Shown here: positions 11,838 through 49,773 of the stretch, one piece after another
Layout: each line of letters opens with the position of its first letter
How positions within the stretch are numbered: position 1 is the first letter of the stretch
Source of the DNA: a virus
Taxonomy: Duplodnaviria; Caudoviricetes
Reading direction: 5' to 3' (one strand)
Length of the DNA: 60,124 nucleotides
Virus record (IMG/VR): IMGVR_UViG_3300029448_000032
Location: 1-60,124 of that record
Translations under genes and position numbers: made by a program
The notes under the pieces: generated by a model
Seen by the model: only the letters and a program-made list of their open reading frames with translations
What the model was told of the DNA's origin: nothing
Databases searched by the model: none

Positions 11838-12186
11838 TATTTCTCCTAGTTTTGCGGAACGGATTATGTGTAACGTTAAACAGGTCACACCCATTCCTTA
11901 AGCAACATTTTATTTCATGAGATTCTACTACAGTAGCTTCTTTATCTGTCATCTGTCCACCTTTAATCACAACAACATCTTGTATTTTGTGGACAGACAA
12001 CTTATCAAGCAACCAAATATGGTGGTCATAACCACGGTTAGTTATCTGGTATGCTCTATGTAAAGTACCCTTACCAACGTATACTACGTTATCCGTTTCC
12101 GGATCTTTATGAAAGTAAACACAGTACATATCTTCAGGATACTTTACAACTTCATGGGTATCTTCTCTAATCTCTATCTGACGCAA
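11728..12186 (-). CDS. GIY-YIG-like nuclease
   Basis: YCVYFH...VVYVGKG..RA pattern; 3' end overlaps the RNAP gene. Confidence 0.55.
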   Translation of the reverse strand: MRQIEIREDTHEVVKYPEDMYCVYFHKDPETDNVVYVGKGTLHRAYQITNRGYDHHIWLLDKLSVHKIQDVVVIKGGQMTDKEATVVESHEIKCCLRNGCDLFNVTHNPFRKTRRNNAEHNRVFRTENYKYTAEVGSKAGERTQAGSEAVSI

Positions 12187-12613
12187 TTTCTACTCCATAT
12201 TTTTTGAGTAGTTCTAAAGGTTCTGTGTCAGGAACTCTAAGATCTAGCTCTTTACTAGGTTTACAGTATACTTTATCGTATACTAGTCTCTTAATACCCG
12301 CCTGTAATATGAGTTTAGTACACTCTTTACAAGGCGAGTATGTTAGATATAATGTAGCACCTTCAGAAGAAGAAGTTGAAGCAGCCAATTTAGCTATAGC
12401 ATTTGCTTCGGCATGAACGACTTCCCACTTAGTGTTTCCAGCACCATCGCGGGTTTCATTAATCATACCATGGGGAGTGCCATTCCAACCATAACTAAGT
12501 ATCTTATTACCATTAGCTATAACTGCTCCAACTTTATAGAGATTATCACGAGATCTTTTGCCAACTACTTCGGCCATCTTAAGATACATGTGATCGTCTT
12601 TAGATAACGTCAA
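12167..12613 (-). CDS. dCMP deaminase
   Basis: GWNG, HAEANAI, SPCKEC motifs. Confidence 0.93.
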   Translation of the reverse strand: MTLSKDDHMYLKMAEVVGKRSRDNLYKVGAVIANGNKILSYGWNGTPHGMINETRDGAGNTKWEVVHAEANAIAKLAASTSSSEGATLYLTYSPCKECTKLILQAGIKRLVYDKVYCKPSKELDLRVPDTEPLELLKKYGVEIASDRD

Positions 12614-15375: not shown

Positions 15376-15728
15376 TGATAGTATATCTCCGGTTTATCGT
15401 TGTTTTTAAGATGTACTATGTCAGCGTTATACAAAGGCTTTTTAGTTTCTTTATTAACAAATGTAGAATGTTTATAAGGATTATAAGTCGCCTGCTTGGT
15501 CATACTAAAATAGTCTTCACTGTTCTGTATATTAGATAGTGTACCTCTAACAAAGGCATGGACATTCTTTTTACGTTCAGTTAAAACTTTAGCACGACCA
15601 GCAGGTTGAACTACAAACTCAGCATCTTTTATAAACACATCATCGCTATGTAGTATAACTATACCTTTATATCTTACTGAGAATATCTTCTTATGTAAGT
15701 TATAGTATACGTCTACCTTAGACATCAA
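15372..15728 (-). CDS. Conserved phage hypothetical protein
   Basis: VYYNLHKK...KKNVHAFVRG...YNPYK pattern, recalled from marine phages. Confidence 0.7.
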   Translation of the reverse strand: MMSKVDVYYNLHKKIFSVRYKGIVILHSDDVFIKDAEFVVQPAGRAKVLTERKKNVHAFVRGTLSNIQNSEDYFSMTKQATYNPYKHSTFVNKETKKPLYNADIVHLKNNDKPEIYYQ

Positions 15729-17584
15729 TGTACCTCCGCGTAAGACTTACCTATTACATAGTCACCACCATCCATACACTCAACACCAAACCATTTAGGT
15801 GCTTCACGAAAAGATTCTTGTAGGATTTCTCCAACACGGTTAGAATCTTTATCACTTGCTATCCAAGCTTGTTCATCATGGTAGAATATAGCAGGATAAG
15901 CATCAAGCTTTTCCTCTTTAATCTTATTCATAGCATAACTAACAGAGGCTTTACAAGTAATACCTTCAGCAGTTTGAAGTAAGTAATTAAGAACTTGGTA
16001 ATCAGACCTAGCAAATATTTTACGACCATCAAGAGCTGGTATAGACCCATACTTATTGAACACAGATCGTAGTTTGTTAACTAGTCTCTCAAATCCTGGT
16101 AAGTTAGCCATGAATTTTCTTCTAGCTTCTTTACCCTTAGGTATACTACTAACTCCTGTAAGAGTTTGTCCAAGCTTAGCATCACCTGCACCAAACAGAA
16201 CAGCATAAAGAAATGATTTAGCTAAAGGTCGAGAGCAATTAAGAACAGCTGCGTTACGAGCATGTTGGTCTCCATTAATAACTAGATCTGTGTAAGCTTT
16301 ATCTCCTACATAATGGCATAGCCCACGTAACTGGTTGCCAGCACTATCAGCACCAACAACATTATAACCTGGTTCAGAGATAAATAATTCTCTTAGCATT
16401 TTACCATAGTCTGCATCAACTGCAGGAAGATTAACAATAACTTCGTGACGACATCTAAAAGAAGGCGTACCAATAGTAAACATTCTTCCATGAAGACGTA
16501 CTCTATCGTTATCATCTTTCCATAGTTTCTCTATCCAAGATTCTATAGTAGCTTTACGGTTCTTTATAGTATAGTATCTATCAATGAGAGTACCTCTGCT
16601 ACCTAGTTTTCTCAATGAAGTTGTTGTAAGTTTAGGCCCGGTCTTTATCCATTGACCGTGACTTCCCTTCTTTACGTTCCAATCATCAGGCTTCCATCCA
16701 ATAGTATGCAGCCAGCTTTTAACTAGATCCATATTACTAAGAGTAACCTTTTCTATAGAAGTTCTTTGGAACTCTGTTCCAGGTAACATAGGTGGAGAAT
16801 CAGATAGAGCATCTTCACCAATCACTTTGCGACCAAGAAACTCAGATAATATTCTAGCAGTAGTTGCAGTATACAATCCAGCTTTAGTATACTTAGGAGT
16901 CTTCGGAGCTTTATCAATAAAGACTTCAGTAGTTCCTAAGTTAGGTTCAATTATAGATTCAATCTTCATCATGTGTTTAGTCATGAGTCTTAAGTTTTCT
17001 TTAGCTTTATCTAAATCAAACAACCAACCCTTCTTACGTACCATAGATTCAAAGATTGCTATATCATGTTCAACACGTAGACCTTTCTTAATTAGTTCAT
17101 TAGATTCTACAGCTGTATGTAGTTCAGCTAGCAGTACTTCATAAACCTTTGTGTTAAGTCTTACGTCTTGTTCACAATACTTTATCATGCCGGGATCGTA
17201 TGTCTTAAATCCCTCATTAGCCCATTCAGTATTGTCCATCTTCTTAAACCCAAGATGTTTACCCCATCCAGCAAGACCATGTCTGTGTGGTCTATTATAT
17301 CTTAATACCTGAGACATAACCCAAGTATCAATCAATGCAGTATGGGAAGACGGTCTCCAGTTAAAGAGCTTCTCTAGTCCCATCAAGTCGAACCCAATAA
17401 TGTTATGGCCTATTAATGCGTCAGCTTTAGACATTAAGTCTAGACCTATTTTAATAGGAGTATCATTAGGTTGATCTGTATATCTATAGATCTTCTTAGT
17501 TATAACATCTTGGCATATAAGTACGTGACAAGTAGTCATCTCTTCTAAGAATCCATCTGTTTCTATATCAAATACAAGTTGCAT
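15725..17584 (-). CDS. polA: Family A DNA polymerase with 3'-5' exonuclease
   Basis: FDIET, GHNIIGFD, motif A GADSAGNQLR, motif B AKSFLYAVLFG, motif C YHDE. Confidence 0.95.
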   Translation of the reverse strand: MQLVFDIETDGFLEEMTTCHVLICQDVITKKIYRYTDQPNDTPIKIGLDLMSKADALIGHNIIGFDLMGLEKLFNWRPSSHTALIDTWVMSQVLRYNRPHRHGLAGWGKHLGFKKMDNTEWANEGFKTYDPGMIKYCEQDVRLNTKVYEVLLAELHTAVESNELIKKGLRVEHDIAIFESMVRKKGWLFDLDKAKENLRLMTKHMMKIESIIEPNLGTTEVFIDKAPKTPKYTKAGLYTATTARILSEFLGRKVIGEDALSDSPPMLPGTEFQRTSIEKVTLSNMDLVKSWLHTIGWKPDDWNVKKGSHGQWIKTGPKLTTTSLRKLGSRGTLIDRYYTIKNRKATIESWIEKLWKDDNDRVRLHGRMFTIGTPSFRCRHEVIVNLPAVDADYGKMLRELFISEPGYNVVGADSAGNQLRGLCHYVGDKAYTDLVINGDQHARNAAVLNCSRPLAKSFLYAVLFGAGDAKLGQTLTGVSSIPKGKEARRKFMANLPGFERLVNKLRSVFNKYGSIPALDGRKIFARSDYQVLNYLLQTAEGITCKASVSYAMNKIKEEKLDAYPAIFYHDEQAWIASDKDSNRVGEILQESFREAPKWFGVECMDGGDYVIGKSYAEVH

Positions 17585-17606
17585 ATGATTCCTTTCATAT
17601 TTATTA

Positions 17607-17633
17607 GTTGAAAAAGCGCGATGAATATCGCGC
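17607..17633 (-). promoter_or_regulatory. Hairpin element (GC stem), candidate vRNAP promoter
   Basis: gttgaaaaa-gcgcg-atgaatat-cgcgc just upstream of polA. Confidence 0.65.
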
Positions 17634-17646
17634 TTTATTAGGGATC

Positions 17647-17844
17647 TTAATAACCTTTAGTCTTATTTAATCCTTGTTCAATCTCTTTAATCCTATCTTT
17701 AAGTACATTGATAGTAATTAAGAGCTCATTATTTTTTACTGAAGTAACTTCCTCTAGTCTAGTAACTAAAATGTTTACTTCAATCTTTAAATAAAATAAA
17801 TGGTTGATGCTTTGGCTACTCATAGTTTTCATAACCGCCATCAT
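17647..17844 (-). CDS. Hypothetical coiled-coil protein
   Basis: ORF only. Confidence 0.5.
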   Translation of the reverse strand: MMAVMKTMSSQSINHLFYLKIEVNILVTRLEEVTSVKNNELLITINVLKDRIKEIEQGLNKTKGY

Positions 17845-18301
17845 TAGAATGATGTAGTATAATGTGAGTATCTCCTACGTTATCAGCATGGTTAGGTCCA
17901 ACCCATCCCTCTGGTTTAATCATATCAGGTAAACCTAATGGATTAGGTCTTGAAGGTTTCTTTCCAGGTTCTTTACTCATGTTAGCTTTATGAACCCTTG
18001 ACCAAGCTTTATTAGCGTCAACACCTAGAATATCTAACGTACCTATTGCTACCACACATAAATCTATAAGACCATCAACAACTTCTTGTGCGTTCTTATC
18101 TAACACGGCTGCAGCTTTAGTCTCGTTAAGTTCTTCTTCTAAGAATTTAATACGAAAATTTAAGAATTCTCTTAAAGTATTGTAGTCTTCTTCATCTATC
18201 TTACGAGCCATCCACTTATGCACACCAAATTTCTGATGCATTGCATGAATGTCTTCTGCCCACGAAGATCGTTTGCCATAAACTCCAGGATATTTCATCA
18301 C
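17816..18301 (-). CDS. MazG/PRA-PH-like NTP pyrophosphohydrolase (candidate dCTPase)
   Basis: EEELNE...DGLIDL...NMSK; adjacent to the dCMP hydroxymethylase. Confidence 0.8.
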   Translation of the reverse strand: MMKYPGVYGKRSSWAEDIHAMHQKFGVHKWMARKIDEEDYNTLREFLNFRIKFLEEELNETKAAAVLDKNAQEVVDGLIDLCVVAIGTLDILGVDANKAWSRVHKANMSKEPGKKPSRPNPLGLPDMIKPEGWVGPNHADNVGDTHIILHHSNDGGYENYE

Positions 18302-18359
18302 ACACTCTCCTTTATGTCGGTAATGTCGGTTAAGTTAAATAAAATTTTAAAGGTACTAC

Positions 18360-19106
18360 TCATCCAGACCTCATAGGTACTACATAGTCTTTAGGTTTAA
18401 TACATTCTTCTATTAAATGAAAATGTCTAGGATATACATGAAGGTTCTGAACCTGCCACGTAATATGCCCTGCTTCAAGACCGAGATCTATCGCAAGACG
18501 GTTAATTACTTTAACTTGCCAAGCATAATCATTAATGTACCCAAATACCGCATCGTTTGAGCGCATCTGAACTACACCATAGAGCGCTGTTCCTCTTTTA
18601 TAGTATGTTACAGCATTTGTACAGACAAAGTCATTCTTACCATGCTCTATGGCCGTCTGATGCATGTCTGGGTTTGTGTATATCATAGTAGCTCTTCGAG
18701 AATTAGGACGTAGCTTTAATTCTTGGACTACATTATTATATTGGCTGCCATTCTCTTTACTATAGATTAAGTATCCATAGTTAGAGTTAATGTCACCATC
18801 AGTATTAGCGGTTACATCCTTCCATATAGCAGGAACCTTACCGTAAATATCTCCTAAATCATTTACGTTTAGACTTTGAGAATCATACCACTCTAATTCA
18901 GCTTCAATGTACTTAACATTTCTTTCTCCGAATATAGTCGGTTCATCAGCAAGGAAGCTGGCAGCTCTTATCTCGAGCGTACCATCTTCCTGAAAGTCTT
19001 GGTTCTTATACAGTTGAATGAATTCTTTTTTGATTTCACCCGACAGCATTAGCTTCCTTTCTTCTATGTTTAAAATAGTGGTCAACCATTTGTTGGTCAC
19101 ATACAA
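18360..19106 (-). CDS. dCMP hydroxymethylase (T4 gp42-like, ThyA fold)
   Basis: ASFLADEP, ELEWY, INSNYG, SRRA.MIYT, DFVCTN, MRSNDAVFGYINDYAWQ, LHVYPRHF closely follow T4 gp42; true start may be MLSGE (~19049). Confidence 0.88.
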   Translation of the reverse strand: MYVTNKWLTTILNIEERKLMLSGEIKKEFIQLYKNQDFQEDGTLEIRAASFLADEPTIFGERNVKYIEAELEWYDSQSLNVNDLGDIYGKVPAIWKDVTANTDGDINSNYGYLIYSKENGSQYNNVVQELKLRPNSRRATMIYTNPDMHQTAIEHGKNDFVCTNAVTYYKRGTALYGVVQMRSNDAVFGYINDYAWQVKVINRLAIDLGLEAGHITWQVQNLHVYPRHFHLIEECIKPKDYVVPMRSG

Positions 19107-19437
19107 ATGTTTTACCTGAGCCTTGTTCTGTTATTTGATAAGGTCTTTTTCTAGCCTTACTCTTATAACCGGTAAGTTTAAATTGCTTACCATCTATCAT
19201 GGCGGTAACATTAGTATCTAAATCATGGAGTCTAGCCCATACATCTAAGTCTTTCTTTTCTTTAGACCTATTTCCTTTGATTCTAGCTATAACTTTAAAT
19301 GTAACTTCATCTTCATCGTAGCTAGCATTACCTACTTTAATATCTAAATCAGGTAACTCGTCATAAGCTCTCATATTTATAGAGCTTTGTAGTTGATTTC
19401 TAATTTCTTTAACAAGTTGTTTATTAAATGATTGCAT
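19036..19437 (-). CDS. Hypothetical protein
   Basis: ORF with AAGGA RBS. Confidence 0.65.
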   Translation of the reverse strand: MQSFNKQLVKEIRNQLQSSINMRAYDELPDLDIKVGNASYDEDEVTFKVIARIKGNRSKEKKDLDVWARLHDLDTNVTAMIDGKQFKLTGYKSKARKRPYQITEQGSGKTFVCDQQMVDHYFKHRRKEANAVG

Positions 19438-19453
19438 TATAGTATTCCTTTTT

Positions 19454-19921
19454 TTAAGATGGTATAGCTGAAGTTACTCCACTATGAGGGAATATCTCAC
19501 ACTCATGGCAGAACGGTTCTTCTAAAGTATTATCGTTAGGATCATCGTAAGATAACGAGTCTTGCCCACATATAGGACATAGACCACTATTAGGATTCTT
19601 ACGTTCTAACCATACGATACAACGACTCGCGTAGTTTATTAGATCTATTAAGCAGTCTTCAGCAGAATCAAAGTTAACATCACCATCTTGTTCCATTACA
19701 GACCGGAATCTTAAAATCTTGGTAGACATCATAGTGTCAAATGACTTCCATCCATGAGGATAATAGTCTTCATCACATACTGAGCCACCTTGATAGTCTT
19801 TATTCTTCTTACTCATAAGATCTATACATCGGCTAAGAACTTTCTTTGAGTCTTCTAAGTAAGATTCAGTACTCATAACTCTGAAGTCTAGATTATTATT
19901 GTTTCTTAAGTTTAATGACAA
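19454..19921 (-). CDS. Nucleotide-modification-associated domain (Nmad1/DUF1599-like) with C-terminal Zn finger
   Basis: KKNKDY...K..R...EDCLIDLINY; CPIC...CHEC. Confidence 0.7.
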   Translation of the reverse strand: MSLNLRNNNNLDFRVMSTESYLEDSKKVLSRCIDLMSKKNKDYQGGSVCDEDYYPHGWKSFDTMMSTKILRFRSVMEQDGDVNFDSAEDCLIDLINYASRCIVWLERKNPNSGLCPICGQDSLSYDDPNDNTLEEPFCHECEIFPHSGVTSAIPS

Positions 19922-19942
19922 AGCTTTCTCCTTTAATTTTAG

Positions 19943-19969
19943 GTTTAAAAAGCGCGATGAATATCGCGC
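19943..19969 (-). promoter_or_regulatory. Hairpin element (GC stem), candidate vRNAP promoter
   Basis: gtttaaaaa-gcgcg-atgaatat-cgcgc upstream of 19921. Confidence 0.65.
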
Positions 19970-19987
19970 CTTTTATCTAATCATCCA

Positions 19988-20842
19988 TTATGCTGCCAAT
20001 AAACTTTGAAATTGAGGAGAACTAGTCCATTTAGTTACCTCTTTTTCTCGGTTCCACATTGACACAGCTTGAGTATCGTTACCTGTGTTACGTAGTTTAA
20101 AACCATTACGCTTATCAGCATAACTAGCGTAGTTAGTGAATGCACTGTAGATAGAGTAAACGTTTTCTCCACGAGTAGATACTTCTTGGTTGTACAAAGA
20201 TACCATCTTCTCAGCTTGTTTTTCATTCATAATTTTCTTGAATAAATCTTCAACATCTGTATAAGCCGTTGATATTCTTGCCCAATTTTGTAGCATGTCG
20301 GCTTGCTCATAAAAATCGTTAGAAGATCTTTCAAGTTGAGTAGCGAAAGCTGCGATGCTAAAGCCTGAAGTGTTCTTACGTTTAACAATATCGTGCTCAC
20401 CTCTTATCATCTTGTTGGTGCAAAAGAAAGAGATCTGTCCATACACTACAGTGTTAGAGCATAAACCGTCTATTCCGTGTAAACCTATAATACGCTGACC
20501 GATTTTCTCTGAATGCTTGTCGGTAAAGATATCAAAACTTACGTTAGGTAACGTGATATCCATCATCATGAATCCCCCGTTACGAGCAGTACTCCATTTA
20601 ATATGGCAGTCTTGCAGCTCATTGTCGGTTAGTTTATCTTTCATAGTATTCCAAACTGTATGAGCAAAATTACTATGGTTAGTAGCTGTGAAGTCGTTAC
20701 CTACTACATTTAGGTACTGACCTGTGTCTTCTCGATATACATATTTCTTGCCATCGATTTTTGTCGGTTCATACCCTATATCAAAGCTTATATCATCGGG
20801 CACACTGAACTGATCTGTCCTTGTTGTAACATAATCTAACAT
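19988..20842 (-). CDS. DUF932-like protein
   Basis: REDTGQYLNVVG, HGIDG, FFCTNKMI, YSIYSAFTNYAS pattern. Confidence 0.7.
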   Translation of the reverse strand: MLDYVTTRTDQFSVPDDISFDIGYEPTKIDGKKYVYREDTGQYLNVVGNDFTATNHSNFAHTVWNTMKDKLTDNELQDCHIKWSTARNGGFMMMDITLPNVSFDIFTDKHSEKIGQRIIGLHGIDGLCSNTVVYGQISFFCTNKMIRGEHDIVKRKNTSGFSIAAFATQLERSSNDFYEQADMLQNWARISTAYTDVEDLFKKIMNEKQAEKMVSLYNQEVSTRGENVYSIYSAFTNYASYADKRNGFKLRNTGNDTQAVSMWNREKEVTKWTSSPQFQSLLAA

Positions 20843-21700: not shown

Positions 21701-21930
21701 TAGTAATTCTCCGTTGGAACGAGCTCTAAGCAGAGCGTTTGCTTTCGACTGTACATCGGTTTATAGCTTAAAGGATTCTTGTAACCCTTTGAAAACGTTA
21801 TAAAAATCTCATCAGATCTTTCGTGACAAGCCTCATAACTAGTGTACGGTCCTTGAGTATCGAGAATGTAGAAACATTCGTTAGTATAAATGTGACATAG
21901 CAACAAAGCTACTTTGATGGGATACATCAT
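21700..21930 (-). CDS. Small Cys-patterned protein (paralog of 29632-29832)
   Basis: LC..C...DT.G.....C..R..E...C. Confidence 0.6.
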   Translation of the reverse strand: MMYPIKVALLLCHIYTNECFYILDTQGPYTSYEACHERSDEIFITFSKGYKNPLSYKPMYSRKQTLCLELVPTENY

Positions 21931-22139
21931 TAGCTTTGCTGCTTAATCAGTTCTTCGAGATACCACTTAGCTTTGTTCAAATCACTAGCTGCCTTACCTT
22001 TATATCGGTAACGCCAAATGTATTTGATAATATTGCCTTGTAGATATCCTTCATATCCATCACTACACGCTGCTTTTATGGCGGTTATGCATTCGATATC
22101 GCCTTGTTTGTAATGAGGTGGATTTATTTCGTTACTCAT
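21930..22139 (-). CDS. DUF3310 protein (T7 gp1.7-like nucleotide kinase domain)
   Basis: INPPHY..IECI...GNIIKYIWR..K....DL.KA.WYL. Confidence 0.85.
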   Translation of the reverse strand: MSNEINPPHYKQGDIECITAIKAACSDGYEGYLQGNIIKYIWRYRYKGKAASDLNKAKWYLEELIKQQS

Positions 22140-22581
22140 CTGGGTTGTATCCTTCCTCTAAAAAGACATCTAAAATCAATTGTTCAGTGAATTTATCTAA
22201 GTCTTTCTCTACGGTTGTTATGTAACTTTCTGAGACATTCTTTGATAATAGTAATTGGATAATCTCAGATCTGAAAGCGTTAAGAGCTTCAGTATACTGG
22301 TCACCAATAAATCTTTGAATCTCTTCAAATTTCTCGTTGGTTATAGTAGCTACTAGATCGTCAACATCATTATCTAAATGCTTATGAATGTTAGACTCTC
22401 CTTGGTTCTCAGCTCTTAATAGTCCTTCACGGACTAACTCGAATGATTTTCTATAAGCTTCTGCGACTTCAGGTTTTTGTTCTTTATGCGCAGTTTCTAT
22501 AAGATTATCGAGTTGTTGAGTAGTAGATTGAAATGCAGATCGCACTGCAGGGAAATGTAGTATGTTGGATATTGTTGTCAT
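22132..22581 (-). CDS. Hypothetical acidic helical protein
   Basis: ORF only. Confidence 0.6.
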   Translation of the reverse strand: MTTISNILHFPAVRSAFQSTTQQLDNLIETAHKEQKPEVAEAYRKSFELVREGLLRAENQGESNIHKHLDNDVDDLVATITNEKFEEIQRFIGDQYTEALNAFRSEIIQLLLSKNVSESYITTVEKDLDKFTEQLILDVFLEEGYNPDE

Positions 22582-24819: not shown

Positions 24820-24847
24820 AATGTGCCTTTCGTATTATTTATATTAA

Positions 24848-24875
24848 GTTTTAAAAATTTTATGGATATAAAATT
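24848..24875 (-). promoter_or_regulatory. Hairpin element (AT stem), candidate vRNAP promoter
   Basis: gttttaaaa-atttt-atggatat-aaaat upstream of the NADAR gene. Confidence 0.65.
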
Positions 24876-24910
24876 GGATGTCGGCATACACTACGGTATT
24901 ACTTTGTTTT

Positions 24911-25393: not shown

Positions 25394-25446
25394 AGACTTT
25401 CTATATTATTATTGTTGTTGATATATTAAAGATTAGATTAATATAT

Positions 25447-25474
25447 GTTTTAAAAATTTTATGAATATAAAATT
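25447..25474 (-). promoter_or_regulatory. Hairpin element (AT stem), candidate vRNAP promoter
   Basis: gttttaaaa-atttt-atgaatat-aaaat. Confidence 0.65.
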
Positions 25475-25631
25475 TGAGGAATGTAAAGGAAGTATATATG
25501 TTGAAGGATAAAGAGGTCCGCTAACCTTCAGGTTGGTGGGCTCGTGGGTGCCGCGAGGTGTCACAATAATCATGCAAATGTTGTACTTAGTAGAGGTATA
25601 GGGAGTGTTACCGCCCTGCCGGACCCCCTTT

Positions 25632-25751: not shown

Positions 25752-26132
25752 TTAGAAGGGAAGATTAGTATTAGGAATAGAAGGTGGAGTAGAAGAAGTA
25801 GAGGTAGGAGTAGTGGTAGAAGTAGAGGTAGAAGGTTGAGATTGGATAGGAGAAGTAGAAGGAAAAGTAGAAGGTTGAGGGTTGAAAGGAATATTAGAGG
25901 AAGGTGCAATAATATCAGGAGTAGAAGGAAGGTTTAGTTTTTGGTTGATAGTATTGTGGAATTTAGGGTAGAAGGTATTAGTTTGAGTATTATAGAGAAG
26001 ATAGTAAAGTTGAAGAGATTTGTTAGTTTTAGAGATTAAATGGTTGAAGTTAGGATGGGTGAAGAAAGTATGAAAGTTATTTAATTGAGGAGTATTATAT
26101 AAAGGATTGAATATATTTGTAAATGGTGACAT
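25752..26132 (-). CDS. Outermost early gene with a near G-free mRNA; 126-aa N/T/P/S/F/L-rich protein
   Basis: Only 3 G in 381 nt; leader GAAAG(G)CACATTATG shared with 24819; own hairpin element and terminator. Confidence 0.65.
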   Translation of the reverse strand: MSPFTNIFNPLYNTPQLNNFHTFFTHPNFNHLISKTNKSLQLYYLLYNTQTNTFYPKFHNTINQKLNLPSTPDIIAPSSNIPFNPQPSTFPSTSPIQSQPSTSTSTTTPTSTSSTPPSIPNTNLPF

Positions 26133-26183
26133 AATGTGCTTTCTATTAGTTAATGTGAAATATTTTAAAAAGAGATAAAATAT

Positions 26184-26211
26184 GTTTTAAAAATTTTATG
26201 GATATAAAATT
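26184..26211 (-). promoter_or_regulatory. Hairpin element (AT stem), candidate first vRNAP promoter
   Basis: gttttaaaa-atttt-atggatat-aaaat. Confidence 0.65.
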
Positions 26212-26239
26212 TGTGGTTAAGAAAGAGAATTGATTTAGA

Positions 26240-28782: not shown

Positions 28783-28873
28783 TTATTAACATAATTTGTT
28801 TTGCTTTTATGGGAATTGGTTTTGCTGTAAATGTGGCTCTTTTAATCCATCTTTCACAAATAAAGGATCGAAT

Positions 28874-29584
28874 ATGATAAATGAGATAAAAGTAGATCTT
28901 ATAGATTCTTGTGGTACAGACTTAACTGTAGTTAATGCTGCAAGAGTATCATTCGATAAAGAAGCAGAGTGGGGTTGGGAGAGATACGATCAAGATGACT
29001 TTAAGAGAGTATTAAGACCAAGAGACAAAAAACTTATTGAGTACTTAGCTGAGCATGAACACTGGAGTCCTTTTGCCCACACGTTTTTGCAATTCAGAAT
29101 AACAGCTCCAATCTTTGTTGCTCGTCAGTTGGGTAAACATCAGGTAGGCCTAGTATGGAACGAGGTTAGCAGAAGATATGTAGACGAAGATCCTGTATTT
29201 TTTAAACCTAAAGAATTTAGAGGAAAACCTATAAATAAAAAGCAGGGAAGTTCTAAAGAAATAATAGATATAAATCCTTCTACAGGGTCTGGTCCTATGT
29301 TTGTAGATGAATATGATAGAGTCATGAACACCAGTAAGTGGACATATAATCAGTTATTAAGTTTAGGTGTATGTCCTGAGCAAGCACGTTTAGTATTACC
29401 ACAAGCAATGATGACGAGCTGGTATTGGTCAGGATCTTTGTTTGCTTTTTCGAGAGTATATAACTTACGAAGTAAAGAGGATGCTCAAGAAGAATGTCAA
29501 GATGTAGCTAAAGAATTAGATAAACATTGTAAACATAAATTTCCTATATCGTGGAAACACTTAACCACAGGAACTGTCCCCTAA
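28874..29584 (+). CDS. thyX: Flavin-dependent thymidylate synthase
   Basis: VVNAARVS, HWSPF, PIFVARQL.KH....NEVSRRY, EQARLVLP, AQEE. Confidence 0.92.
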   Translation: MINEIKVDLIDSCGTDLTVVNAARVSFDKEAEWGWERYDQDDFKRVLRPRDKKLIEYLAEHEHWSPFAHTFLQFRITAPIFVARQLGKHQVGLVWNEVSRRYVDEDPVFFKPKEFRGKPINKKQGSSKEIIDINPSTGSGPMFVDEYDRVMNTSKWTYNQLLSLGVCPEQARLVLPQAMMTSWYWSGSLFAFSRVYNLRSKEDAQEECQDVAKELDKHCKHKFPISWKHLTTGTVP

Positions 29585-35135: not shown

Positions 35136-35197
35136 ATTTAACTTAGACGTTGCCTAATGGGACGTCGCTATAATTCTTGCTTAAAGAGGAGAACCAA

Positions 35198-35623
35198 ATG
35201 AGACATTCAGATATTATCGATTTTTTTAATTTTCATACACCTTATGCTATCGGATTTGATACATTAGTAGAAAGACTAAATCAAACTTGTAAATATACTA
35301 ATACAGATACTTATCCACCATATAATATTATAAAGGAAAGTGCTGAAAATTTTAAAATAGAAATGGCTTTAGCAGGCTTTGATAAAACTGAAATAGAAAT
35401 CAGTGTTGCTGATGGAGTATTATCAGTTAAGTCTATTAAAGAAAACAAACAAAGTGATGATAATCTATACAGAGGAATCTCTTATAGAAAATTTGATAAG
35501 AAGTTTACATTAGCGGAAGATGTTGTCGTAAAAGACGCAGAGCTAATTAATGGTTTATTATCTATTAAACTAGAAAAAATACTTCCAGAGGAAAAGAAAC
35601 CTAGGAAGATTACGATTAACTAA
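35198..35623 (+). CDS. Small heat-shock protein (Hsp20/IbpA-like)
   Basis: YPPYNI, IEMALAGF, YRGIS.R.F, NGLL.I.L..ILPEEKKPRKI. Confidence 0.93.
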   Translation: MRHSDIIDFFNFHTPYAIGFDTLVERLNQTCKYTNTDTYPPYNIIKESAENFKIEMALAGFDKTEIEISVADGVLSVKSIKENKQSDDNLYRGISYRKFDKKFTLAEDVVVKDAELINGLLSIKLEKILPEEKKPRKITIN

Positions 35624-37293: not shown

Positions 37294-38472
37294 ATGGCTA
37301 ATAATCTTGGTGTACGCGGAACAGGAGGACCAGCAGGTCCTGCGCGTGCTACAAACAAGGATGTCTCGGAAAGAGAGGACCTTGCTAACTTTATATCGAT
37401 GATTACAAGGGACGAAACTCCTTTTACATCTTCGATCGGGAAAACTAAAGCGACTGCTATTTATCATGAATGGCAAACAGACGCATTAGAGGCTCCTGGA
37501 AATTCACGTATCGGTGAAGGTACTGACTGGATTGCTCCTACTGATGATGGTAGTGGTGGTACAGGCGCAACACCTGCTACTGGTGCTAAATTTGCTATTA
37601 CTGGTCCTCACAGAACCAGACTAGGTAACTACACACAGATCAATGGTAAAACTATTGCTGTGTCAGGAACTAGACGAGCTGTTGATCAGGCTGGTGTAGC
37701 TGACGAATATGCGTATCAACTTAAAAAGCGTGGTACTGAACTTCGACGTGACGTTGAATTTGATATGATTCATGCTCACAACGTTTCTAACGCTGTTGGT
37801 TCTCAGAACGCTAACTCACGTTCAGCTGGCGGATATTCATCATTCGTTAACAGTGCAGCTACATGTAACTATGTAGGTCAATGGGAAGCTCCATCTGCTG
37901 CTACTACAGGCGCAGGTACTGATAATGAAGGTACTGCTATTCCTAGAGCTAGCATCAATGCTGGCACTACTGCTCCAACAAGAGGCTCTCTTGCTTTAAC
38001 AGATATTGATGCTGTTATGCAAAAGATCTATGAGGAAGGTGGTAAAGCTTCTAAAGTTATGCTTTCACCTAAGTTGCGCAGAGACTTCTCTGACCTAATG
38101 GTTAGTGATACAGGCGTAAGACGTAATATGGATGCTGACGGAAAACTTCGTCAATCTGTTGACGTATATATGTCTGACTTTGGCGACATTATGGTTGTGC
38201 CTAATTATATCATGGGACTAACTAATAACCATGCTGCTATCTTAGGTGATGGTCACGCATCTACTAAATTTACTGGTAATGGAATTCCAGATATGGCTGA
38301 CTATGCAGCATATATCTATGATCCAATGTGGTTCTCAACTGCATATCTACGATCTCTACAAGAGGTGGATGTAGGCCAGCAAGGTGACTCAACCAAAGGA
38401 ATGATGGTTGAAGAGTGCACACTCGAAGTACGTAATCCAAAAGGTTGCGGTGCTATTTACGGTCTTAACTAA
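37294..38472 (+). CDS. Major capsid protein (SU10/DUF5309 type)
   Basis: REDL...I...ETPF, HEWQTDAL, NYTQI, AYQ..K...ELRRDVE, Y.SDFG. Confidence 0.9.
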   Translation: MANNLGVRGTGGPAGPARATNKDVSEREDLANFISMITRDETPFTSSIGKTKATAIYHEWQTDALEAPGNSRIGEGTDWIAPTDDGSGGTGATPATGAKFAITGPHRTRLGNYTQINGKTIAVSGTRRAVDQAGVADEYAYQLKKRGTELRRDVEFDMIHAHNVSNAVGSQNANSRSAGGYSSFVNSAATCNYVGQWEAPSAATTGAGTDNEGTAIPRASINAGTTAPTRGSLALTDIDAVMQKIYEEGGKASKVMLSPKLRRDFSDLMVSDTGVRRNMDADGKLRQSVDVYMSDFGDIMVVPNYIMGLTNNHAAILGDGHASTKFTGNGIPDMADYAAYIYDPMWFSTAYLRSLQEVDVGQQGDSTKGMMVEECTLEVRNPKGCGAIYGLN

Positions 38473-48012: not shown

Positions 48013-49773
48013 ATGCAAGTAGATTTCATAGGACCAACAAAGAAAGTTTCTCAAGAAATAGACGAATTAAAGTATCGTCAGAAAGGAGAAAGCTTTAACG
48101 AAAAGATACAGAGAATATCTAGAGCTTTGAGCGATGATATTAATCACAGACATAGTTTAGAAGATATCTTAGGTACTATGAGGTTCTTACCAGCTGGCAG
48201 AGTACAATCAGCTATTGGATCTAATAGAATCACTACTGCTTATAACTGTTTTGTTTCAGGTAAAATAGAAGATAGTATGAATAGCATAATGGAGAAGGCT
48301 AGTGAAGCTGCTGAGACAATGCGTAGAGGAGGTGGCATTGGCTATGACTTCTCTAAGATACGGCCACGTGGTGACAGGATTAAATCTTTGGACTCACAAT
48401 CGTCGGGACCTGTTAGTTTTATGGCTATATTTGACGCTGTTTGCCAGACCATCGCGTCTTCAGGACATAGGCGGGGCGCTCAGATGGGCGTTTTACGGGT
48501 GGACCATCCGGACATTAAAGAGTTCGTTATGGCTAAACGTAATTCTGATAAGCTTACTGGGTTTAATGTTAGCGTTGGAATAACTGATGAATTTATGGAA
48601 GCACTAATAAATGAATCTGACGATTCTTTTCAATTAAAGTTTAATGACCAAGTATATGATACGATATCTGCAAAAGAGTTGTGGAAGGTTATTATGGAAT
48701 CCACATGGGATTGGGCAGAACCAGGAGTTTTATTTATAGATAGAATAGAAGAGATGAATAATCTTTCTTACTGTGAGAAGATAGCTGCTACTAATCCTTG
48801 TGGAGAGCAACCACTCCCTCCTTATGGAGCTTGCTTATTAGGAAGCTTTAATCTAACTAAGTACTTAGAAGAACACGATGTTGGAACTGAGTATAAACAT
48901 TATGTCTTTAACTTCGATCAATTCAAAAAAGATATACATGACGTAGTCAGAGCTATGGATAATGTTGTTGATAGAACTATATACCCACTAAAGAAACAAG
49001 CGGATGAAGCTAAAGACAAACGTAGAATGGGGCTTGGTGTAACTGGATTAGCTAATGCAGGAGAGATGTTACTACTACCATACGCTTCTGATAAGTTTAT
49101 GGTATGGGCAGAGAAAGTATTTGCTTGTTTAAGAGATAATACATATAAGGCTTCAGCTTTATTAGCAAAAGAGAAAGGTCCATTCCCACAATATAGACCA
49201 GAGTATTTGAAATCTAACTTTGTAAGAACATTACCAGCATCTGTTAAAAAATTAATAAGAGATCATGGTATTAGAAACTCTCATCTTACATCTATTGCTC
49301 CTACAGGAACTATTAGTTTAGTTGCTGACAATGTTTCAGGAGGTATTGAACCTGTATTTAGTCATTATTATGATAGAACTATTGAAACTTTTGAAGGTCC
49401 AAAAGTTGAAAGAGTAGAAGACTATGCTTACTCTCATGGAGTAAAAGGTAGAACTGCAAATGAAATTTCTGTTGATGAACATCTATCAGTATTATTACTA
49501 GCTCAACATTATATTGATAGTGCTTGTTCTAAGACATGTAATGTAGGGGATGAAGTTGAATACGATAAATTTCAACAGACTTATGTGGATGCCTGGAAAG
49601 GCGGGGCGAAGGGATGTACAACGTTCAGACTTAGTGGTAAAAGATACGGAATCCTTAATGCGCCCGTGGAAAAAGAAGAGGCGAGTACAAATGAGATTAA
49701 GGAAATTGAAGAACCGGAAAAAGTTGAAGCGTGCTTTTTTGACCCTACGACTGGGGCTAAGGAATGCGCTTAA
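48013..49773 (+). CDS. nrdJ: Ribonucleotide reductase, probably class II (B12-dependent)
   Basis: FLPAGR, NCF, TNPCGEQ, APTGTIS, C-terminal Cys pair; no beta-subunit gene seen in the genome. Confidence 0.85.
   Translation: MQVDFIGPTKKVSQEIDELKYRQKGESFNEKIQRISRALSDDINHRHSLEDILGTMRFLPAGRVQSAIGSNRITTAYNCFVSGKIEDSMNSIMEKASEAAETMRRGGGIGYDFSKIRPRGDRIKSLDSQSSGPVSFMAIFDAVCQTIASSGHRRGAQMGVLRVDHPDIKEFVMAKRNSDKLTGFNVSVGITDEFMEALINESDDSFQLKFNDQVYDTISAKELWKVIMESTWDWAEPGVLFIDRIEEMNNLSYCEKIAATNPCGEQPLPPYGACLLGSFNLTKYLEEHDVGTEYKHYVFNFDQFKKDIHDVVRAMDNVVDRTIYPLKKQADEAKDKRRMGLGVTGLANAGEMLLLPYASDKFMVWAEKVFACLRDNTYKASALLAKEKGPFPQYRPEYLKSNFVRTLPASVKKLIRDHGIRNSHLTSIAPTGTISLVADNVSGGIEPVFSHYYDRTIETFEGPKVERVEDYAYSHGVKGRTANEISVDEHLSVLLLAQHYIDSACSKTCNVGDEVEYDKFQQTYVDAWKGGAKGCTTFRLSGKRYGILNAPVEKEEASTNEIKEIEEPEKVEACFFDPTTGAKECA

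What the first reader, a model, noticed from the sequence alone, without database searches (positions are those of the whole stretch)
17816..19921. T4-type cytosine-modification module in a small podovirus with no visible glycosyltransferase
Seen: a gp42-like enzyme retaining the dCMP-specifying Asp (NDYAWQ), flanked by a MazG-like pyrophosphatase and an Nmad1-like protein under one hairpin element. A DUF3310 kinase-like gene and dCMP deaminase lie in the same arm, and a separate ThyX can supply dTMP. Inference: genomic C is replaced by 5hmC or a related base, either unglycosylated or further modified by an unrecognised enzyme such as 19036-19437.
Basis: partly seen in the sequence, partly recalled or inferred. 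Interest (0 to 1): 0.75.

Follow-up and report, generated by a model that had tools for sequence, protein, structure and literature searches.

The report
Hydroxymethylcytosine cassette in a marine podovirus
A complete 60-kb marine phage carries a compact gene cassette that should replace the cytosine in its DNA with 5-hydroxymethylcytosine, and where close relatives have a sugar-adding enzyme it has only a small protein of unknown function.

Summary
Window 17647-19921 (minus strand) is a transcription unit between two exact copies of a terminator-like hairpin. It encodes an Nmad1-domain protein, a 133-aa basic protein (unk133), a T4-type dCMP hydroxymethylase and a MazG/PRA-PH pyrophosphatase.

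The hydroxymethylase is 46% identical to T4 gp42. It matches gp42 at 15 of 15 active-site positions, including those separating 5hmC makers from 5mC, 5hoC and dTMP makers.

No glycosyltransferase, carbamoyltransferase or canonical dNMP kinase was found in the complete genome.

In 80 related metagenomic loci the cassette sits at a fixed place upstream of the family A DNA polymerase (PolA):
- 13 of 13 near relatives carry the T4-type enzyme.
- More distant relatives, including Pelagibacter phage Kolga, carry a ThyA-like N177D enzyme (predicted 5mC).
- 24 of 24 intermediate relatives have no cassette.
- Each of the 13 near relatives has exactly one accessory gene: a TET-associated glycosyltransferase (TAGT, 3), a SAM methyltransferase (8) or the unk133 family (2).

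Best reading: pre-replicative replacement of C by 5hmC, left bare or handled by unk133. The dCMP deaminase and DUF3310 genes belong to the backbone, not the cassette. Nothing here is chemically proven. I rate it a new variant of a known kind.

The parts
19936..19973 (-). Upstream copy of the repeated hairpin element. It looks like an intrinsic terminator on the coding strand and marks the 5' boundary of the cassette.
   Evidence: -18.1 kcal/mol, z -5.5, UUUUU tail; 3 exact copies, 0.01 expected.
19454..19921 (-). Nmad1 (DUF1599)-domain protein, 155 aa. Residues about 22-108 form a three-helix domain, followed by a C-terminal CxxC...CxxC zinc-ribbon-like tail. It is a conserved partner of base-modifying thymidylate synthase (TS) homologues. 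Biochemical role unknown.
   Evidence: 545 representative clusters at E <= 1e-3; invariant K39 Y43 K68 R71 D93 Y97; 23/35 DUF1599, 11/35 fused to PRA-PH; pLDDT 79.7.
19036..19437 (-). unk133: a 133-aa basic protein (pI 9.4) of a small unknown family. It occupies the accessory slot where relatives carry the TAGT glycosyltransferase.
   Evidence: (30 clusters at E <= 0.01; two distant ones carry a precomputed PF27402 label). The AF2 model is unreliable (pLDDT 54.3).
18360..19049 (-). T4-type dCMP hydroxymethylase (5hm-dCMP synthase). The longest ORF runs to the TTG at 19106; the probable start is the ATG at 19049.
   Evidence: 15/15 active-site positions equal T4 gp42; 46% identity over gp42 residues 1-242.
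17816..18301 (-). MazG/PRA-PH-type all-alpha dNTP pyrophosphohydrolase, the presumed dCTPase (possibly also a dUTPase).
   Evidence: nearest solved structure DR2231, E 6.7e-7; E56/E57, E60, D76, D80 conserved; 5819 homologous clusters; linked to the cassette.
17647..17844 (-). 65-aa ORF at the 3' end of the cassette. It has weak homologues at the same place in relatives. Function unknown.
   Evidence: no family; 28-50% identical homologues in 8 loci.
17600..17637 (-). Downstream copy of the hairpin element, marking the 3' boundary of the cassette just before the PolA gene.
   Evidence: (-13.7 kcal/mol, z -4.8).
15725..17584 (-). Family A DNA polymerase (PolA), which would have to accept 5hm-dCTP. 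It anchors the synteny across relatives.
   Evidence: (phrog_17, E 1.7e-84).
12167..12613 (-). dCMP deaminase. This is a backbone gene, also present in relatives without the cassette. It supplies dUMP for ThyX.
28796..29584 (+). ThyX flavin-dependent thymidylate synthase, a dTMP supply independent of the hydroxymethylase.
   Evidence: phrog_85, E 8.7e-64.
21930..22139 (-). DUF3310 protein, 69 aa, similar to the C-terminal third of the T7 gp1.7 nucleotide kinase. This is a backbone gene; kinase activity is doubtful.
   Evidence: (37% identity to gp1.7 residues 125-192, E 2e-7).

Best explanation
Window 17647-19921 is a self-contained cytosine-replacement cassette in the replication arm of a complete, roughly 60-kb marine podovirus. 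The phage has an SU10-type capsid and a T7-like RNA polymerase, primase-helicase and PolA.

Proposed pathway:
1. The MazG/PRA-PH pyrophosphatase hydrolyses dCTP (perhaps also dUTP) to the monophosphate. This empties the dCTP pool and supplies dCMP. (Inferred.)
2. The T4-type thymidylate-synthase homologue adds the methylene of methylene-tetrahydrofolate to C5 of dCMP and hydrates it, giving 5-hydroxymethyl-dCMP. (Inferred from an active site identical to T4 gp42.)
3. A kinase raises 5hm-dCMP to the triphosphate. No such kinase was identified in the phage, so it may be a host enzyme or an unrecognised phage protein. (This is a gap in the pathway.)
4. The phage PolA incorporates 5hm-dCTP, so 5hmC replaces C. 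(Inferred.)

dTMP is made separately by the backbone dCMP deaminase plus ThyX.

The Nmad1 protein is an obligatory but biochemically undefined partner. In other phages it is often fused to the pyrophosphatase.

This genome has no glycosyltransferase. The accessory slot that holds a TAGT glycosyltransferase or a SAM methyltransferase in near relatives holds the 133-aa basic protein unk133 here. The DNA is therefore most likely bare 5hmC (my estimate about 0.45), or 5hmC tailored or shielded by unk133 (about 0.25).
For: Enzyme identity:
- T4 dCMP hydroxymethylase structures match at E 6.1e-55.
- Identity is 43-52% to T-even and Aeromonas gp42, which top a list of 1313 matching phage records, and 46% to T4 gp42 over its residues 1-242. 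By contrast it is 25% to RB69 gp48 and 26% to Kolga gp35.

Diagnostic residues, using the rules in PMC13326640 (I read sections 24 and 28):
- Catalytic Cys146 is present.
- N177 is Asp, which specifies dCMP.
- L143 is Asp, the hydroxymethyl-type signature.
- D169 is kept, so it is not the 5-hydroxy-dCMP type.
- In all, 15 of 15 positions equal T4 gp42, and the ThyA C-terminal tail is absent.

Tree: the window, 12 near relatives, T4, Serratia SP1 and 5 marine loci form a clade of 20 with support 0.83. That clade excludes the Microbacterium, RB69, Bacteroides, Xp12, Kolga-type and E. coli sequences.

Cassette linkage:
- Of 13 near-relative loci with at least 3 kb upstream of PolA, 13 have MazG, 13 have the T4-type TS and 12 have Nmad1.
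- Of 24 intermediate relatives with the same flank, 0 have any of the three.
- Of 3 distant relatives, 3 have MazG, Nmad1 and a ThyA-like N177D TS.

Partners recur in phages with known cytosine replacement:
- Xp12 (5mC) has a MazG-Nmad1 fusion next to its TS and dCMP deaminase.
- Serratia phage SP1 has Nmad1 next to gp42 and to alpha- and beta-glucosyltransferases.
- The MazG also matches Rhizobium/Agrobacterium phages of about 150 kb.

A hydroxyl acceptor is implied because TAGT (PF20691, E 7.1e-14, 1.1e-13 and 1.3e-4) lies beside the same TS in 3 near relatives.

Literature: PRA-PH, TS and PolA are listed among the top domains co-localised with dCMP deaminases on cytosine-modified metavirome contigs (bioRxiv 10.1101/2024.12.05.627091, passages only).

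Completeness: CheckV 100% and a terminal overlap of about 100 nt.
Against: - No chemistry was done. The product, the substrate and the extent of replacement all rest on homology.
- The pyrophosphatase's nearest solved relative, DR2231, is a dUTP-preferring enzyme by my recollection. It has no detectable similarity to T4 gp56. A dCTPase role is inferred only from gene linkage.
- No dNMP kinase able to phosphorylate 5hm-dCMP was found. Six-frame searches with PF02223 and PF01712 gave nothing at E <= 1, and T4 gp1 and RB69 gp45 have no match. In T4 the phage kinase is needed, according to the T4 record's own annotation.
- Known DNA glycosyltransferases are diverse, and some escape Pfam. An unrecognised one cannot be excluded among the unannotated ORFs.
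- unk133 has no catalytic signature, and its model is unreliable.
Confidence: 0.68

Rival explanations
1. The TS homologue is a dCMP methyltransferase and the DNA carries 5-methylcytosine, as in Xanthomonas phage Xp12.
For: - The same partners (MazG, Nmad1, dCMP deaminase) surround the Xp12 5mC enzyme.
- The closest cultured relative by PolA, Kolga, has at the same position a ThyA-like enzyme with L143, H147, Q165 and D177 and the ThyA C-terminal tail.
- Asp at position 177 alone is known to turn a ThyA into a dCMP methylase (PMC8670742, passages only).
Against: - The window enzyme has Asp, not a hydrophobic residue, at position 143. It lacks the C-terminal tail and equals T4 gp42 at 15 of 15 positions.
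- It is only 26% identical to Kolga gp35. Against Xp12 it gave no tblastn hit at E <= 1e-3.
- Three near relatives with the same enzyme carry a glycosyltransferase, which needs a hydroxyl group.
- No dihydrofolate reductase turned up among the family matches found in the window, whereas Xp12 has one next to its enzyme.
Confidence: 0.07
2. The enzyme is a flavin-dependent 5-hydroxy-dCMP synthase, as in RB69 gp48, and the DNA carries 5-hydroxycytosine.
For: RB69 gp48 and other gp42-like enzymes long annotated as hydroxymethylases turned out to make 5hoC (PMC13326640, abstract and sections 24 and 28). The MazG family also occurs in Rhizobium/Agrobacterium phages of about 150 kb; the paper reports 5hoC derivatives in Rhizobium phage RL38JI of the Pootjesviridae.
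Against: The diagnostic D169N change is absent: the window has Asp, like T4. Identity to RB69 gp48 is 25% against 46% to T4 gp42. In the tree RB69 lies outside the window-T4 clade.
Confidence: 0.03
3. 5hm-dCMP is made but is only a minor or intermediate species. It could be deaminated to 5hm-dUMP, or the cassette could mainly adjust nucleotide pools with MazG acting as a dUTPase. Either way, C would not be replaced wholesale.
For: - No phage kinase for 5hm-dCMP was found.
- The MazG's nearest solved relative is DR2231, which I recall as dUTP-specific.
- In a screen of 90 phage dCMP deaminases, 7 gave 5hmdU from 5hmdC forms (bioRxiv 10.1101/2024.12.05.627091, passages only).
- The window encodes a dCMP deaminase.
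Against: - The deaminase is a backbone gene also present in relatives that lack the cassette, and it lies 6 kb from the TS.
- ThyX already supplies dTMP.
- MazG is strictly linked to the Asp177 TS homologues: 13 of 13 and 3 of 3 loci with the cassette, against 0 of 24 without.
- Glycosyltransferases in three relatives imply 5hmC present in DNA.
Confidence: 0.12

Closest known systems
Bacteriophage T4 hydroxymethylcytosine pathway (gp56 dCTPase, gp42 dCMP hydroxymethylase, gp1 dNMP kinase, alpha/beta-glucosyltransferases)
   Same: The hydroxymethylase is a true homologue: 46% identity, 15 of 15 active-site positions, same clade. The logic is the same: a pyrophosphatase next to the hydroxymethylase, plus a separate dCMP deaminase and thymidylate synthase.
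   Different: - There is no homologue of gp56, gp1 or either glucosyltransferase.
- The pyrophosphatase is a PRA-PH/DR2231-like MazG.
- An Nmad1 protein is part of the unit.
- dTMP comes from ThyX, not ThyA.
- The replicase is a family A polymerase in a podovirus with a T7-like RNA polymerase. According to PMC10201439 (passage only), the characterised phages with derivatised 5hmC use family B polymerases.
Xanthomonas phage Xp12 5-methylcytosine module (MazG-Nmad1 fusion, dCMP methylase, dCMP deaminase, DHFR)
   Same: Same partner set and order: MazG and Nmad1 next to an Asp177 TS homologue, with a dCMP deaminase in the genome.
   Different: In Xp12 MazG and Nmad1 form one 257-aa protein. Its TS homologue keeps the ThyA-like C-terminal tail, lacks the acidic residue at position 143 and makes 5mC (product as stated in bioRxiv 10.1101/2024.12.05.627091). 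Xp12 also has a dihydrofolate reductase annotated beside the enzyme.
Pelagibacter phage Kolga EXVC016S, genes gp36-gp35-gp34
   Same: This is the closest cultured relative by PolA (38%). The order Nmad1-TS-MazG upstream of PolA is the same. MazG is 43% and Nmad1 36% identical.
   Different: The TS gene is a different lineage: ThyA-like with N177D, 26% identical, predicted dCMP methylase. There is no gene between Nmad1 and TS.
Serratia phage SP1 (Muldoonvirus), Nmad1 next to gp42 and HMC glucosyltransferases
   Same: An Nmad1 homologue (39% identity) lies directly upstream of a T4-type hydroxymethylase that has the same 15 positions.
   Different: SP1 is a T4-like myovirus with annotated alpha- and beta-glucosyltransferases downstream. 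The window has none.
TS-plus-glycosyltransferase and TS-plus-PRA-PH-plus-PolA neighbourhoods on modified metavirome contigs (MetaGPA studies)
   Same: The general pattern of Asp177 TS homologues, PRA-PH, dCMP deaminase and PolA on cytosine-modified viral contigs is already reported (PMC8670742 and bioRxiv 10.1101/2024.12.05.627091, passages only). Glycosyltransferases associated with thymidylate synthase are reported in bioRxiv 10.1101/2023.12.21.572611 (passages only).
   Different: Those studies are statistical. In the passages I read they do not describe this phage lineage, the fixed insertion site with alternative TS types, the three mutually exclusive accessory genes or the unk133 family. 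I did not read them in full, and supplements were closed.

Membership tests
T4-type dCMP hydroxymethylase (5hm-dCMP synthase, thymidylate synthase superfamily) | Thymidylate synthase fold or family match above the curated threshold | tested here: met
   PF00303 at 63.4 bits against a cut-off of 24.3; PDB 1b49 at E 6.1e-55.
T4-type dCMP hydroxymethylase (5hm-dCMP synthase, thymidylate synthase superfamily) | Catalytic cysteine (E. coli C146, T4 C148) | tested here: met
   FVCTN aligned to T4 FMCTN.
T4-type dCMP hydroxymethylase (5hm-dCMP synthase, thymidylate synthase superfamily) | Asp at E. coli N177 (T4 D179), which specifies dCMP | tested here: met
   INDYAWQ aligned to T4 RNDYAWQ. The rule comes from PMC8670742 and PMC13326640.
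T4-type dCMP hydroxymethylase (5hm-dCMP synthase, thymidylate synthase superfamily) | Acidic residue at E. coli L143, allowing water access and a hydroxymethyl rather than methyl product | tested here: met
   Asp, as in T4. The rule comes from PMC13326640 section 24.
T4-type dCMP hydroxymethylase (5hm-dCMP synthase, thymidylate synthase superfamily) | Asp retained at E. coli D169 (Asn marks the 5-hydroxy-dCMP synthases) | tested here: met
   MRSND has Asp, whereas RB69 gp48 has Asn. The rule comes from PMC13326640 section 28.
T4-type dCMP hydroxymethylase (5hm-dCMP synthase, thymidylate synthase superfamily) | Makes 5hm-dCMP from dCMP and methylene-tetrahydrofolate | not testable with these tools
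   Needs an enzyme assay, or in vivo expression followed by LC-MS.
Complete T4-type hmC system | gp56-type dCTPase/dUTPase | tested here: not met
   T4 gp56 has no tblastn match in the window at E <= 1 and none to the window MazG at E <= 1e-3. A PRA-PH-type enzyme, possibly analogous, is present instead.
Complete T4-type hmC system | gp1-type dNMP kinase that accepts hm-dCMP | tested here: not met
   T4 gp1 and RB69 gp45 have no match at E <= 1. PF02223 and PF01712 gave no six-frame match at E <= 1. No kinase family appeared in the Pfam scans of 66 ORFs.
Complete T4-type hmC system | DNA glucosyltransferase acting on hmC | tested here: not met
   PF09198, PF11440, PF00534, PF00535 and PF20691 gave no six-frame match at E <= 1. 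T4 beta-GT and SP1 alpha-GT have no tblastn match. A fold unknown to these libraries cannot be excluded.
MazG / all-alpha NTP pyrophosphohydrolase (Pfam PRA-PH PF01503) | Family match above threshold and acidic metal-binding motifs (ExxE ... ExxD) | tested here: met
   34.8 bits against a cut-off of 21.3. E56/E57, E60, D76 and D80 are invariant or nearly so in 39 homologues. E57, E60, E73 and D80 are invariant across the 8-sequence alignment that includes T4 and RB69 gp56.
MazG / all-alpha NTP pyrophosphohydrolase (Pfam PRA-PH PF01503) | Specificity for dCTP | not testable with these tools
   Only gene linkage to Asp177 TS homologues supports it. The nearest solved relative is DR2231.
Nmad1 (DUF1599, nucleotide modification associated domain 1) | Match to PF07659 | tested here: inconclusive
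   The direct match is below the cut-off (17.7 against 25 bits, E 0.0047). However, 23 of 35 longer homologues match at E <= 1e-3, and phrog_1485 gives E 2.6e-14. By transitivity I accept membership.
T7 gp1.7 nucleotide kinase | Full-length similarity to the 196-aa kinase | tested here: not met
   The 69-aa DUF3310 protein aligns only to gp1.7 residues 125-192 (37% identity, E 2e-7).

The most novel reading that the evidence does not exclude
The 133-aa basic protein at 19036-19437 represents a third, previously unrecognised way of finishing hydroxymethylcytosine DNA, an alternative to the TAGT glycosyltransferase and the SAM methyltransferase found in sister phages. It could be a new small tailoring enzyme. 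It could instead be a protein that binds or shields 5hmC DNA, for example against modification-dependent nucleases. In the second case this abundant marine podovirus would be a natural phage that packages bare 5hmC and replicates it with a family A polymerase.
Probability: 0.25. Interest if true: 0.75.

Novelty: new variant of a known kind. Interest (0 to 1): 0.58.

Why it matters
Complete replacement of cytosine by 5hmC is textbook biology for T-even myoviruses, where it is coupled to glycosylation and a family B polymerase. Four things here go beyond that.

- The same hydroxymethylase sits in a portable three-gene cassette (Nmad1, TS homologue, MazG) at a fixed site in a widespread family of marine PolA phages. 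Thirteen sequencing runs hold at least half of the sampled words, and the matching runs span 12 studies, one of them possibly the source.
- Within that family the cassette exists in a 5hmC-type version and a predicted 5mC-type version, or is absent. This is a natural experiment on how base-modification systems are exchanged.
- The 5hmC-type cassettes carry one of three mutually exclusive accessory genes. Only one of these, the glycosyltransferase, has an obvious role. The methyltransferase and the unk133 family are concrete candidates for new DNA chemistry or new protection mechanisms.
- If this phage really carries bare 5hmC, it would supply natural unglycosylated hmC DNA and enzymes of interest for epigenetic sequencing tools. 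It would also bear on how marine hosts with few restriction systems select for DNA modification.

The recurrent, undefined Nmad1 partner is an open biochemical question with a clear test system.

Tried and rejected
- **unk133 structure.** AlphaFold2 on a 10-row alignment gave mean pLDDT 54.3. This is too poor for a fold search, so none was run.
- **unk133 sequence searches.**
  - Nothing significant in PDB with a profile (best E 0.74).
  - No Pfam match at E <= 0.01. At E <= 1 there was only a chance-level DUF7490 hit.
  - The Atlas lead 'PF27402 Y4mA_C' (12-21% of members) and the precomputed label on two distant homologues could not be followed, because this Pfam copy lacks that model.
- **Nmad1 fold.**
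  - Foldseek against PDB found no match at E <= 0.001. Integron MazG chains appeared at probability 0.41-0.54.
  - VIA-align wide gave a best Z of 7.1. PRA-PH or MazG-like chains (1yvw, 7bgm; 2p06 by my recollection) were among many tied helical hits at Z 6.5-6.6.
  - This is inconclusive. I do not claim Nmad1 is a MazG-like fold.
- **Nmad1 profile comparisons.** Against MazG: probability 2.2%. Against DUF3310: probability 0.2%. No relationship was shown in either case.
- **Complex prediction of MazG with Nmad1.** No verdict (score 0.00), so it counts neither for nor against binding.
- **Nearest DNA relatives.** Megablast of 8 kb against 50,697 phage records found no match.
- **tRNA genes.** None found, so no host clue.
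- **Sequencing runs.** All 24 listed runs are kept as assembled contigs. These cannot show base modification, so I did not lay reads.
- **Literature.**
  - Two look-ups by id for the paper that, by my recollection, named the Nmad domains were not held.
  - Searches for 'Nmad1/DUF1599', 'Nmad, MazG, hydroxymethylase, phage' and 'dCTPase, MazG, phage, modified' found no characterisation of Nmad1 or of a PRA-PH-type phage dCTPase. The last search listed 15 of 148 papers.
  - A search for marine podoviruses with a dCMP hydroxymethylase found none.
- **Tools unavailable.** One script call returned no answer; I repeated the tree with FastTree.
- **PHROGs coverage.** The PHROGs scan of 37 ORFs displayed 25 of 30 families, so five families were not seen.

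Full report
**What the window is**

The window is a whole virus record of 60,124 bases, rated 100% complete by CheckV. Its last roughly 100 bases recur at its start, and the same 33-residue peptide is read at both ends. The assembly therefore closes on itself, and gene absences refer to a complete genome.

Genes on the plus strand at 26.6-60.1 kb and 0-9.2 kb are structural or lytic:
- terminase, portal, Hsp20 and two endolysins;
- an SU10-type major capsid protein at 37294-38472 and an SU10 adaptor;
- tail fibres;
- a ribonucleotide reductase at 48013-49773.

The minus-strand arm at 9.5-25.4 kb holds a T7-like RNA polymerase, dCMP deaminase, primase-helicase, RusA-like resolvase, exonuclease, PolA and a gp2.5-like single-strand binding protein (SSB).

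There is no nucleotide-level relative among 50,697 phage records. By PolA the nearest cultured phages are Pelagibacter phage Kolga (38%) and Roseobacter phage CRP-7 (35%). Near-identical DNA occurs in marine metagenomes: 13 runs hold at least half of the sampled words, and the matching runs span 12 studies, one of them possibly the source.

**The observation**

17816-18301 is a PRA-PH/MazG-type pyrophosphohydrolase.

18360-19106 is a thymidylate-synthase homologue. It matches the T4 dCMP hydroxymethylase structures at E 6.1e-55, with the catalytic FxCTN and the NDYAWQ motif aligned. T4 gp42 aligns from its first residue to the ATG at 19049, which has a good ribosome-binding site. The real gene is probably 18360-19049 and overlaps the upstream gene by 14 bases.

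19454-19921 carries an Nmad1/DUF1599 domain. The direct Pfam score is below threshold. Membership is nonetheless supported by PHROGs, by 545 representative homologues and by 23 of 35 longer homologues matching DUF1599.

The hairpin element is real. There are three exact copies of an 18-base palindrome in the window, against 0.01 expected by chance. On the coding strand each copy folds strongly and is followed by five U. Two copies bracket 17647-19921, so the four genes plus a 65-aa ORF form one unit between terminator-like sites.

**Which base does the enzyme make?**

A 2026 paper (PMC13326640; I read the abstract and sections 24 and 28) gives tested residue rules in E. coli ThyA numbering:
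- C146 is the catalytic cysteine.
- N177D means the substrate is dCMP.
- An acidic residue at L143 goes with hydroxymethyl rather than methyl products.
- D169N marks the flavin-dependent 5-hydroxy-dCMP synthases such as RB69 gp48.

I aligned the window protein with E. coli ThyA, T4 gp42, RB69 gp48, the Xp12 enzyme, Kolga gp35 and others. The window protein has C146, Asp143, Asp169 and Asp177. It equals T4 gp42 at all 15 active-site positions examined and lacks the ThyA C-terminal tail.

It is 46% identical to T4 gp42, against 25% to RB69 gp48 and 26% to Kolga gp35.

In a FastTree phylogeny of 31 sequences, the window and 12 near relatives are sister to T4 gp42, Serratia SP1 gp42 and five marine loci. 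That clade of 20 has support 0.83 and excludes the Microbacterium, RB69, Bacteroides, Xp12, Kolga-type and E. coli sequences.

The 5hmC reading is therefore clearly preferred over 5mC, 5hoC or dTMP. No chemistry was done.

**The cassette in relatives**

A PolA-guided scan of IMG/VR returned 80 loci. I sorted them by PolA identity and by BLAST with the window's genes.

| Group | PolA identity | Loci | Loci with at least 3 kb upstream of PolA | Cassette content in those loci |
|---|---|---|---|---|
| A | at least 70% | 25 | 13 | MazG 13/13; T4-type TS 13/13; Nmad1 12/13 (the exception is cut at the contig end) |
| B | 49-57% | 47 | 24 | none of the three, 0/24 |
| C | 45-49% | 5 | 3 | MazG, Nmad1 and a ThyA-like N177D TS, 3/3 |
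| D | about 37% | 3 | 0 | too short to judge |

The Group C TS is 44-46% identical to Kolga gp35. Kolga itself has the same Nmad1-TS-MazG order upstream of PolA.

The cassette is thus an insertion at a fixed site. It exists in two versions that differ in the TS lineage: a 5hmC type and a predicted 5mC type.

Group B loci still carry the dCMP deaminase and DUF3310 genes. These are therefore backbone genes, not parts of the module.

**Partners elsewhere**

- The MazG-like and Nmad1-like proteins are fused in Xp12 and its relatives, next to the Xp12 TS homologue, a dCMP deaminase and a dihydrofolate reductase. Xp12 replaces C with 5mC, and its TS homologue makes 5mdC, as stated in bioRxiv 10.1101/2024.12.05.627091 (passages only).
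- Among 35 longer Nmad1 homologues, 11 carry a PRA-PH domain.
- In Serratia phage SP1, a T4-like myovirus, an Nmad1 gene lies directly upstream of gp42, followed by annotated alpha- and beta-glucosyltransferases.
- Five marine loci, two of them from contigs of 135-151 kb, carry MazG (four of the five), Nmad1, a T4-type TS and a dCMP deaminase together. On one of these contigs, which also encodes a family B polymerase, the genes sit among sugar-nucleotide genes.
- The MazG family is very abundant in marine data, with 5819 clusters at E <= 1e-5.

This recurrent linkage is the evidence that the pyrophosphatase serves cytosine replacement. Its specificity is unknown. The nearest solved structure is DR2231, which I recall as dUTP-preferring. 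It shows no similarity to T4 gp56 in BLAST.

**What follows incorporation**

I found no glycosyltransferase, carbamoyltransferase, SAM methyltransferase or canonical dNMP kinase.
- Pfam was run on 66 ORFs.
- PHROGs was run on those and 14 more. Together this covers 80 of the 81 ORFs on my list. The one left out is a 48-aa ORF inside another frame.
- Nine families were searched in six frames with no match at E <= 1.
- T4 gp1, gp56 and beta-GT, RB69 gp45 and SP1 alpha-GT gave no tblastn match.

The near relatives are informative. Each of the 13 Group A cassettes with enough flank carries exactly one of three accessory genes:
- a TET-associated glycosyltransferase (TAGT, PF20691; E 7.1e-14, 1.1e-13 and 1.3e-4) between Nmad1 and TS, in 3 loci;
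- a class I SAM methyltransferase (Methyltransf_23, E about 1e-10) between TS and MazG, in 8 loci;
- a homologue of the window's 133-aa protein between Nmad1 and TS, in 2 loci, plus one more locus with 2,980 bases of flank.

The glycosyltransferase needs a hydroxyl acceptor. That independently fits 5hmC as the product of this TS clade.

The window's accessory gene, unk133, sits in the same slot as TAGT. It is basic (pI 9.4) and conserved at 29-32% identity in two other sublineages. Beyond that it has only distant homologues of unknown function. It could not be modelled.

I therefore cannot say whether it is an enzyme, a DNA-binding or protective protein, or an unrelated passenger. The mutual exclusivity could also reflect three sublineages each keeping its own insert.

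**Nmad1**

The domain has invariant K39, Y43, K68, R71, D93 and Y97 across 70 sequences. It models confidently as three long helices.

Fold searches and profile comparisons gave only weak, tied hints of a PRA-PH/MazG-like arrangement. A complex prediction with MazG gave no verdict.

Its role remains open. It could be a partner subunit of the pyrophosphatase, a specificity factor or the missing kinase. The fusions argue for a functional link with MazG.

**Verdict**

It needs correcting in three respects. Only gp42 is of T4 type. The deaminase and DUF3310 genes belong to the backbone. A kinase step is missing.

The general association of Asp177 TS homologues with PRA-PH, dCMP deaminase and PolA on modified metavirome contigs is already in print, as are glycosyltransferases associated with TS. 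The kind is therefore known.

In the passages I read and the searches I ran, I did not see the following described:
- this marine PolA-podovirus lineage;
- the fixed-site cassette with interchangeable TS types;
- the three mutually exclusive accessory genes;
- a variant that may package bare 5hmC.

Supplements were closed and may list such contigs.

I rate it a new variant of a known kind, interest 0.58.

Noticed in passing
L024:5397-6236 (also L016, L017, L020, L022, L025, L026, L027): In 8 of 13 near-relative cassettes, a 279-282-aa class I SAM methyltransferase (Methyltransf_23, E 1.3e-10) sits between the T4-type hydroxymethylase and MazG. It is never found together with TAGT or the unk133 family. 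It might modify 5hmC or the nucleotide pool; no known precedent comes to mind.
   Followed up: partly
L029:1327-2289, L030:3755-4708, L034:4189-5187: A TET-associated glycosyltransferase (PF20691) is paired here with a pre-replicative T4-type dCMP hydroxymethylase rather than with a TET/5mYOX dioxygenase.
   Followed up: partly
L009:4766-6420 (Pelagibacter phage Kolga gp36-gp34): The cultured SAR11 phage Kolga carries Nmad1, a ThyA-like TS with N177D (L143, H147 and Q165 kept, C-terminal tail kept) and MazG. All but the TS are annotated as hypothetical. This predicts 5-methylcytosine DNA in Kolga.
   Followed up: partly
L004:1635-10880: On a 151-kb contig with a family B polymerase, the genes for MazG, Nmad1, T4-type TS and dCMP deaminase are interleaved with sugar-nucleotide genes: DAHP/KDO8P-synthase-like, two cytidylyltransferases, a cupin and a UDP-glucose dehydrogenase. 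Two unannotated proteins of 313 and 326 aa lie there too. This suggests an unusual sugar on 5hmC in large marine myoviruses.
   Followed up: partly
window 24840-24880, 25439-25479, 26176-26216: Three copies of a 41-nt AT-rich element with an internal palindrome (AAATTTTATGnATATAAAATTT) lie in the region between the two divergent arms. They are probably early promoters or operators.
   Followed up: no
window 57139-60124 joined to 1-609: The last roughly 100 bases repeat at the start of the record, and a large ORF (about 995 plus 170 aa) runs across the junction. The record is a closed or terminally redundant genome, although it is labelled linear.
   Followed up: partly
window 35177-35623: A phage-encoded Hsp20-type small heat-shock protein (phrog_432, E 2.2e-40) lies between the portal and the capsid genes.
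   Followed up: no
window 48013-49773: A ribonucleotide reductase large-subunit-like gene (PF02867, E 3.2e-107) lies inside the late/structural arm, far from the other nucleotide-metabolism genes.
   Followed up: no
window 19988-20842 and L030:5421-6374: A DUF932-like protein lies just upstream of the cassette in the window (weak match, E 4.4e-4). A clear DUF932 protein (E 6.7e-39) lies inside the cassette of relative L030. Its function is unknown, and it seems to move around this region.
   Followed up: no
window 22132-22581 and L024:4377-4874: The 149-aa unknown protein of the window has a 32-48% identical paralogue family (149-165 aa). In 5 relatives this paralogue is inserted directly after the hydroxymethylase gene.
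   Followed up: no
window 25752-26132: A low-complexity stretch with 12-nt periodic repeats (GTAGAAG-type) gives open frames on both strands. It is probably non-coding or a repeat region at the arm junction.
   Followed up: no
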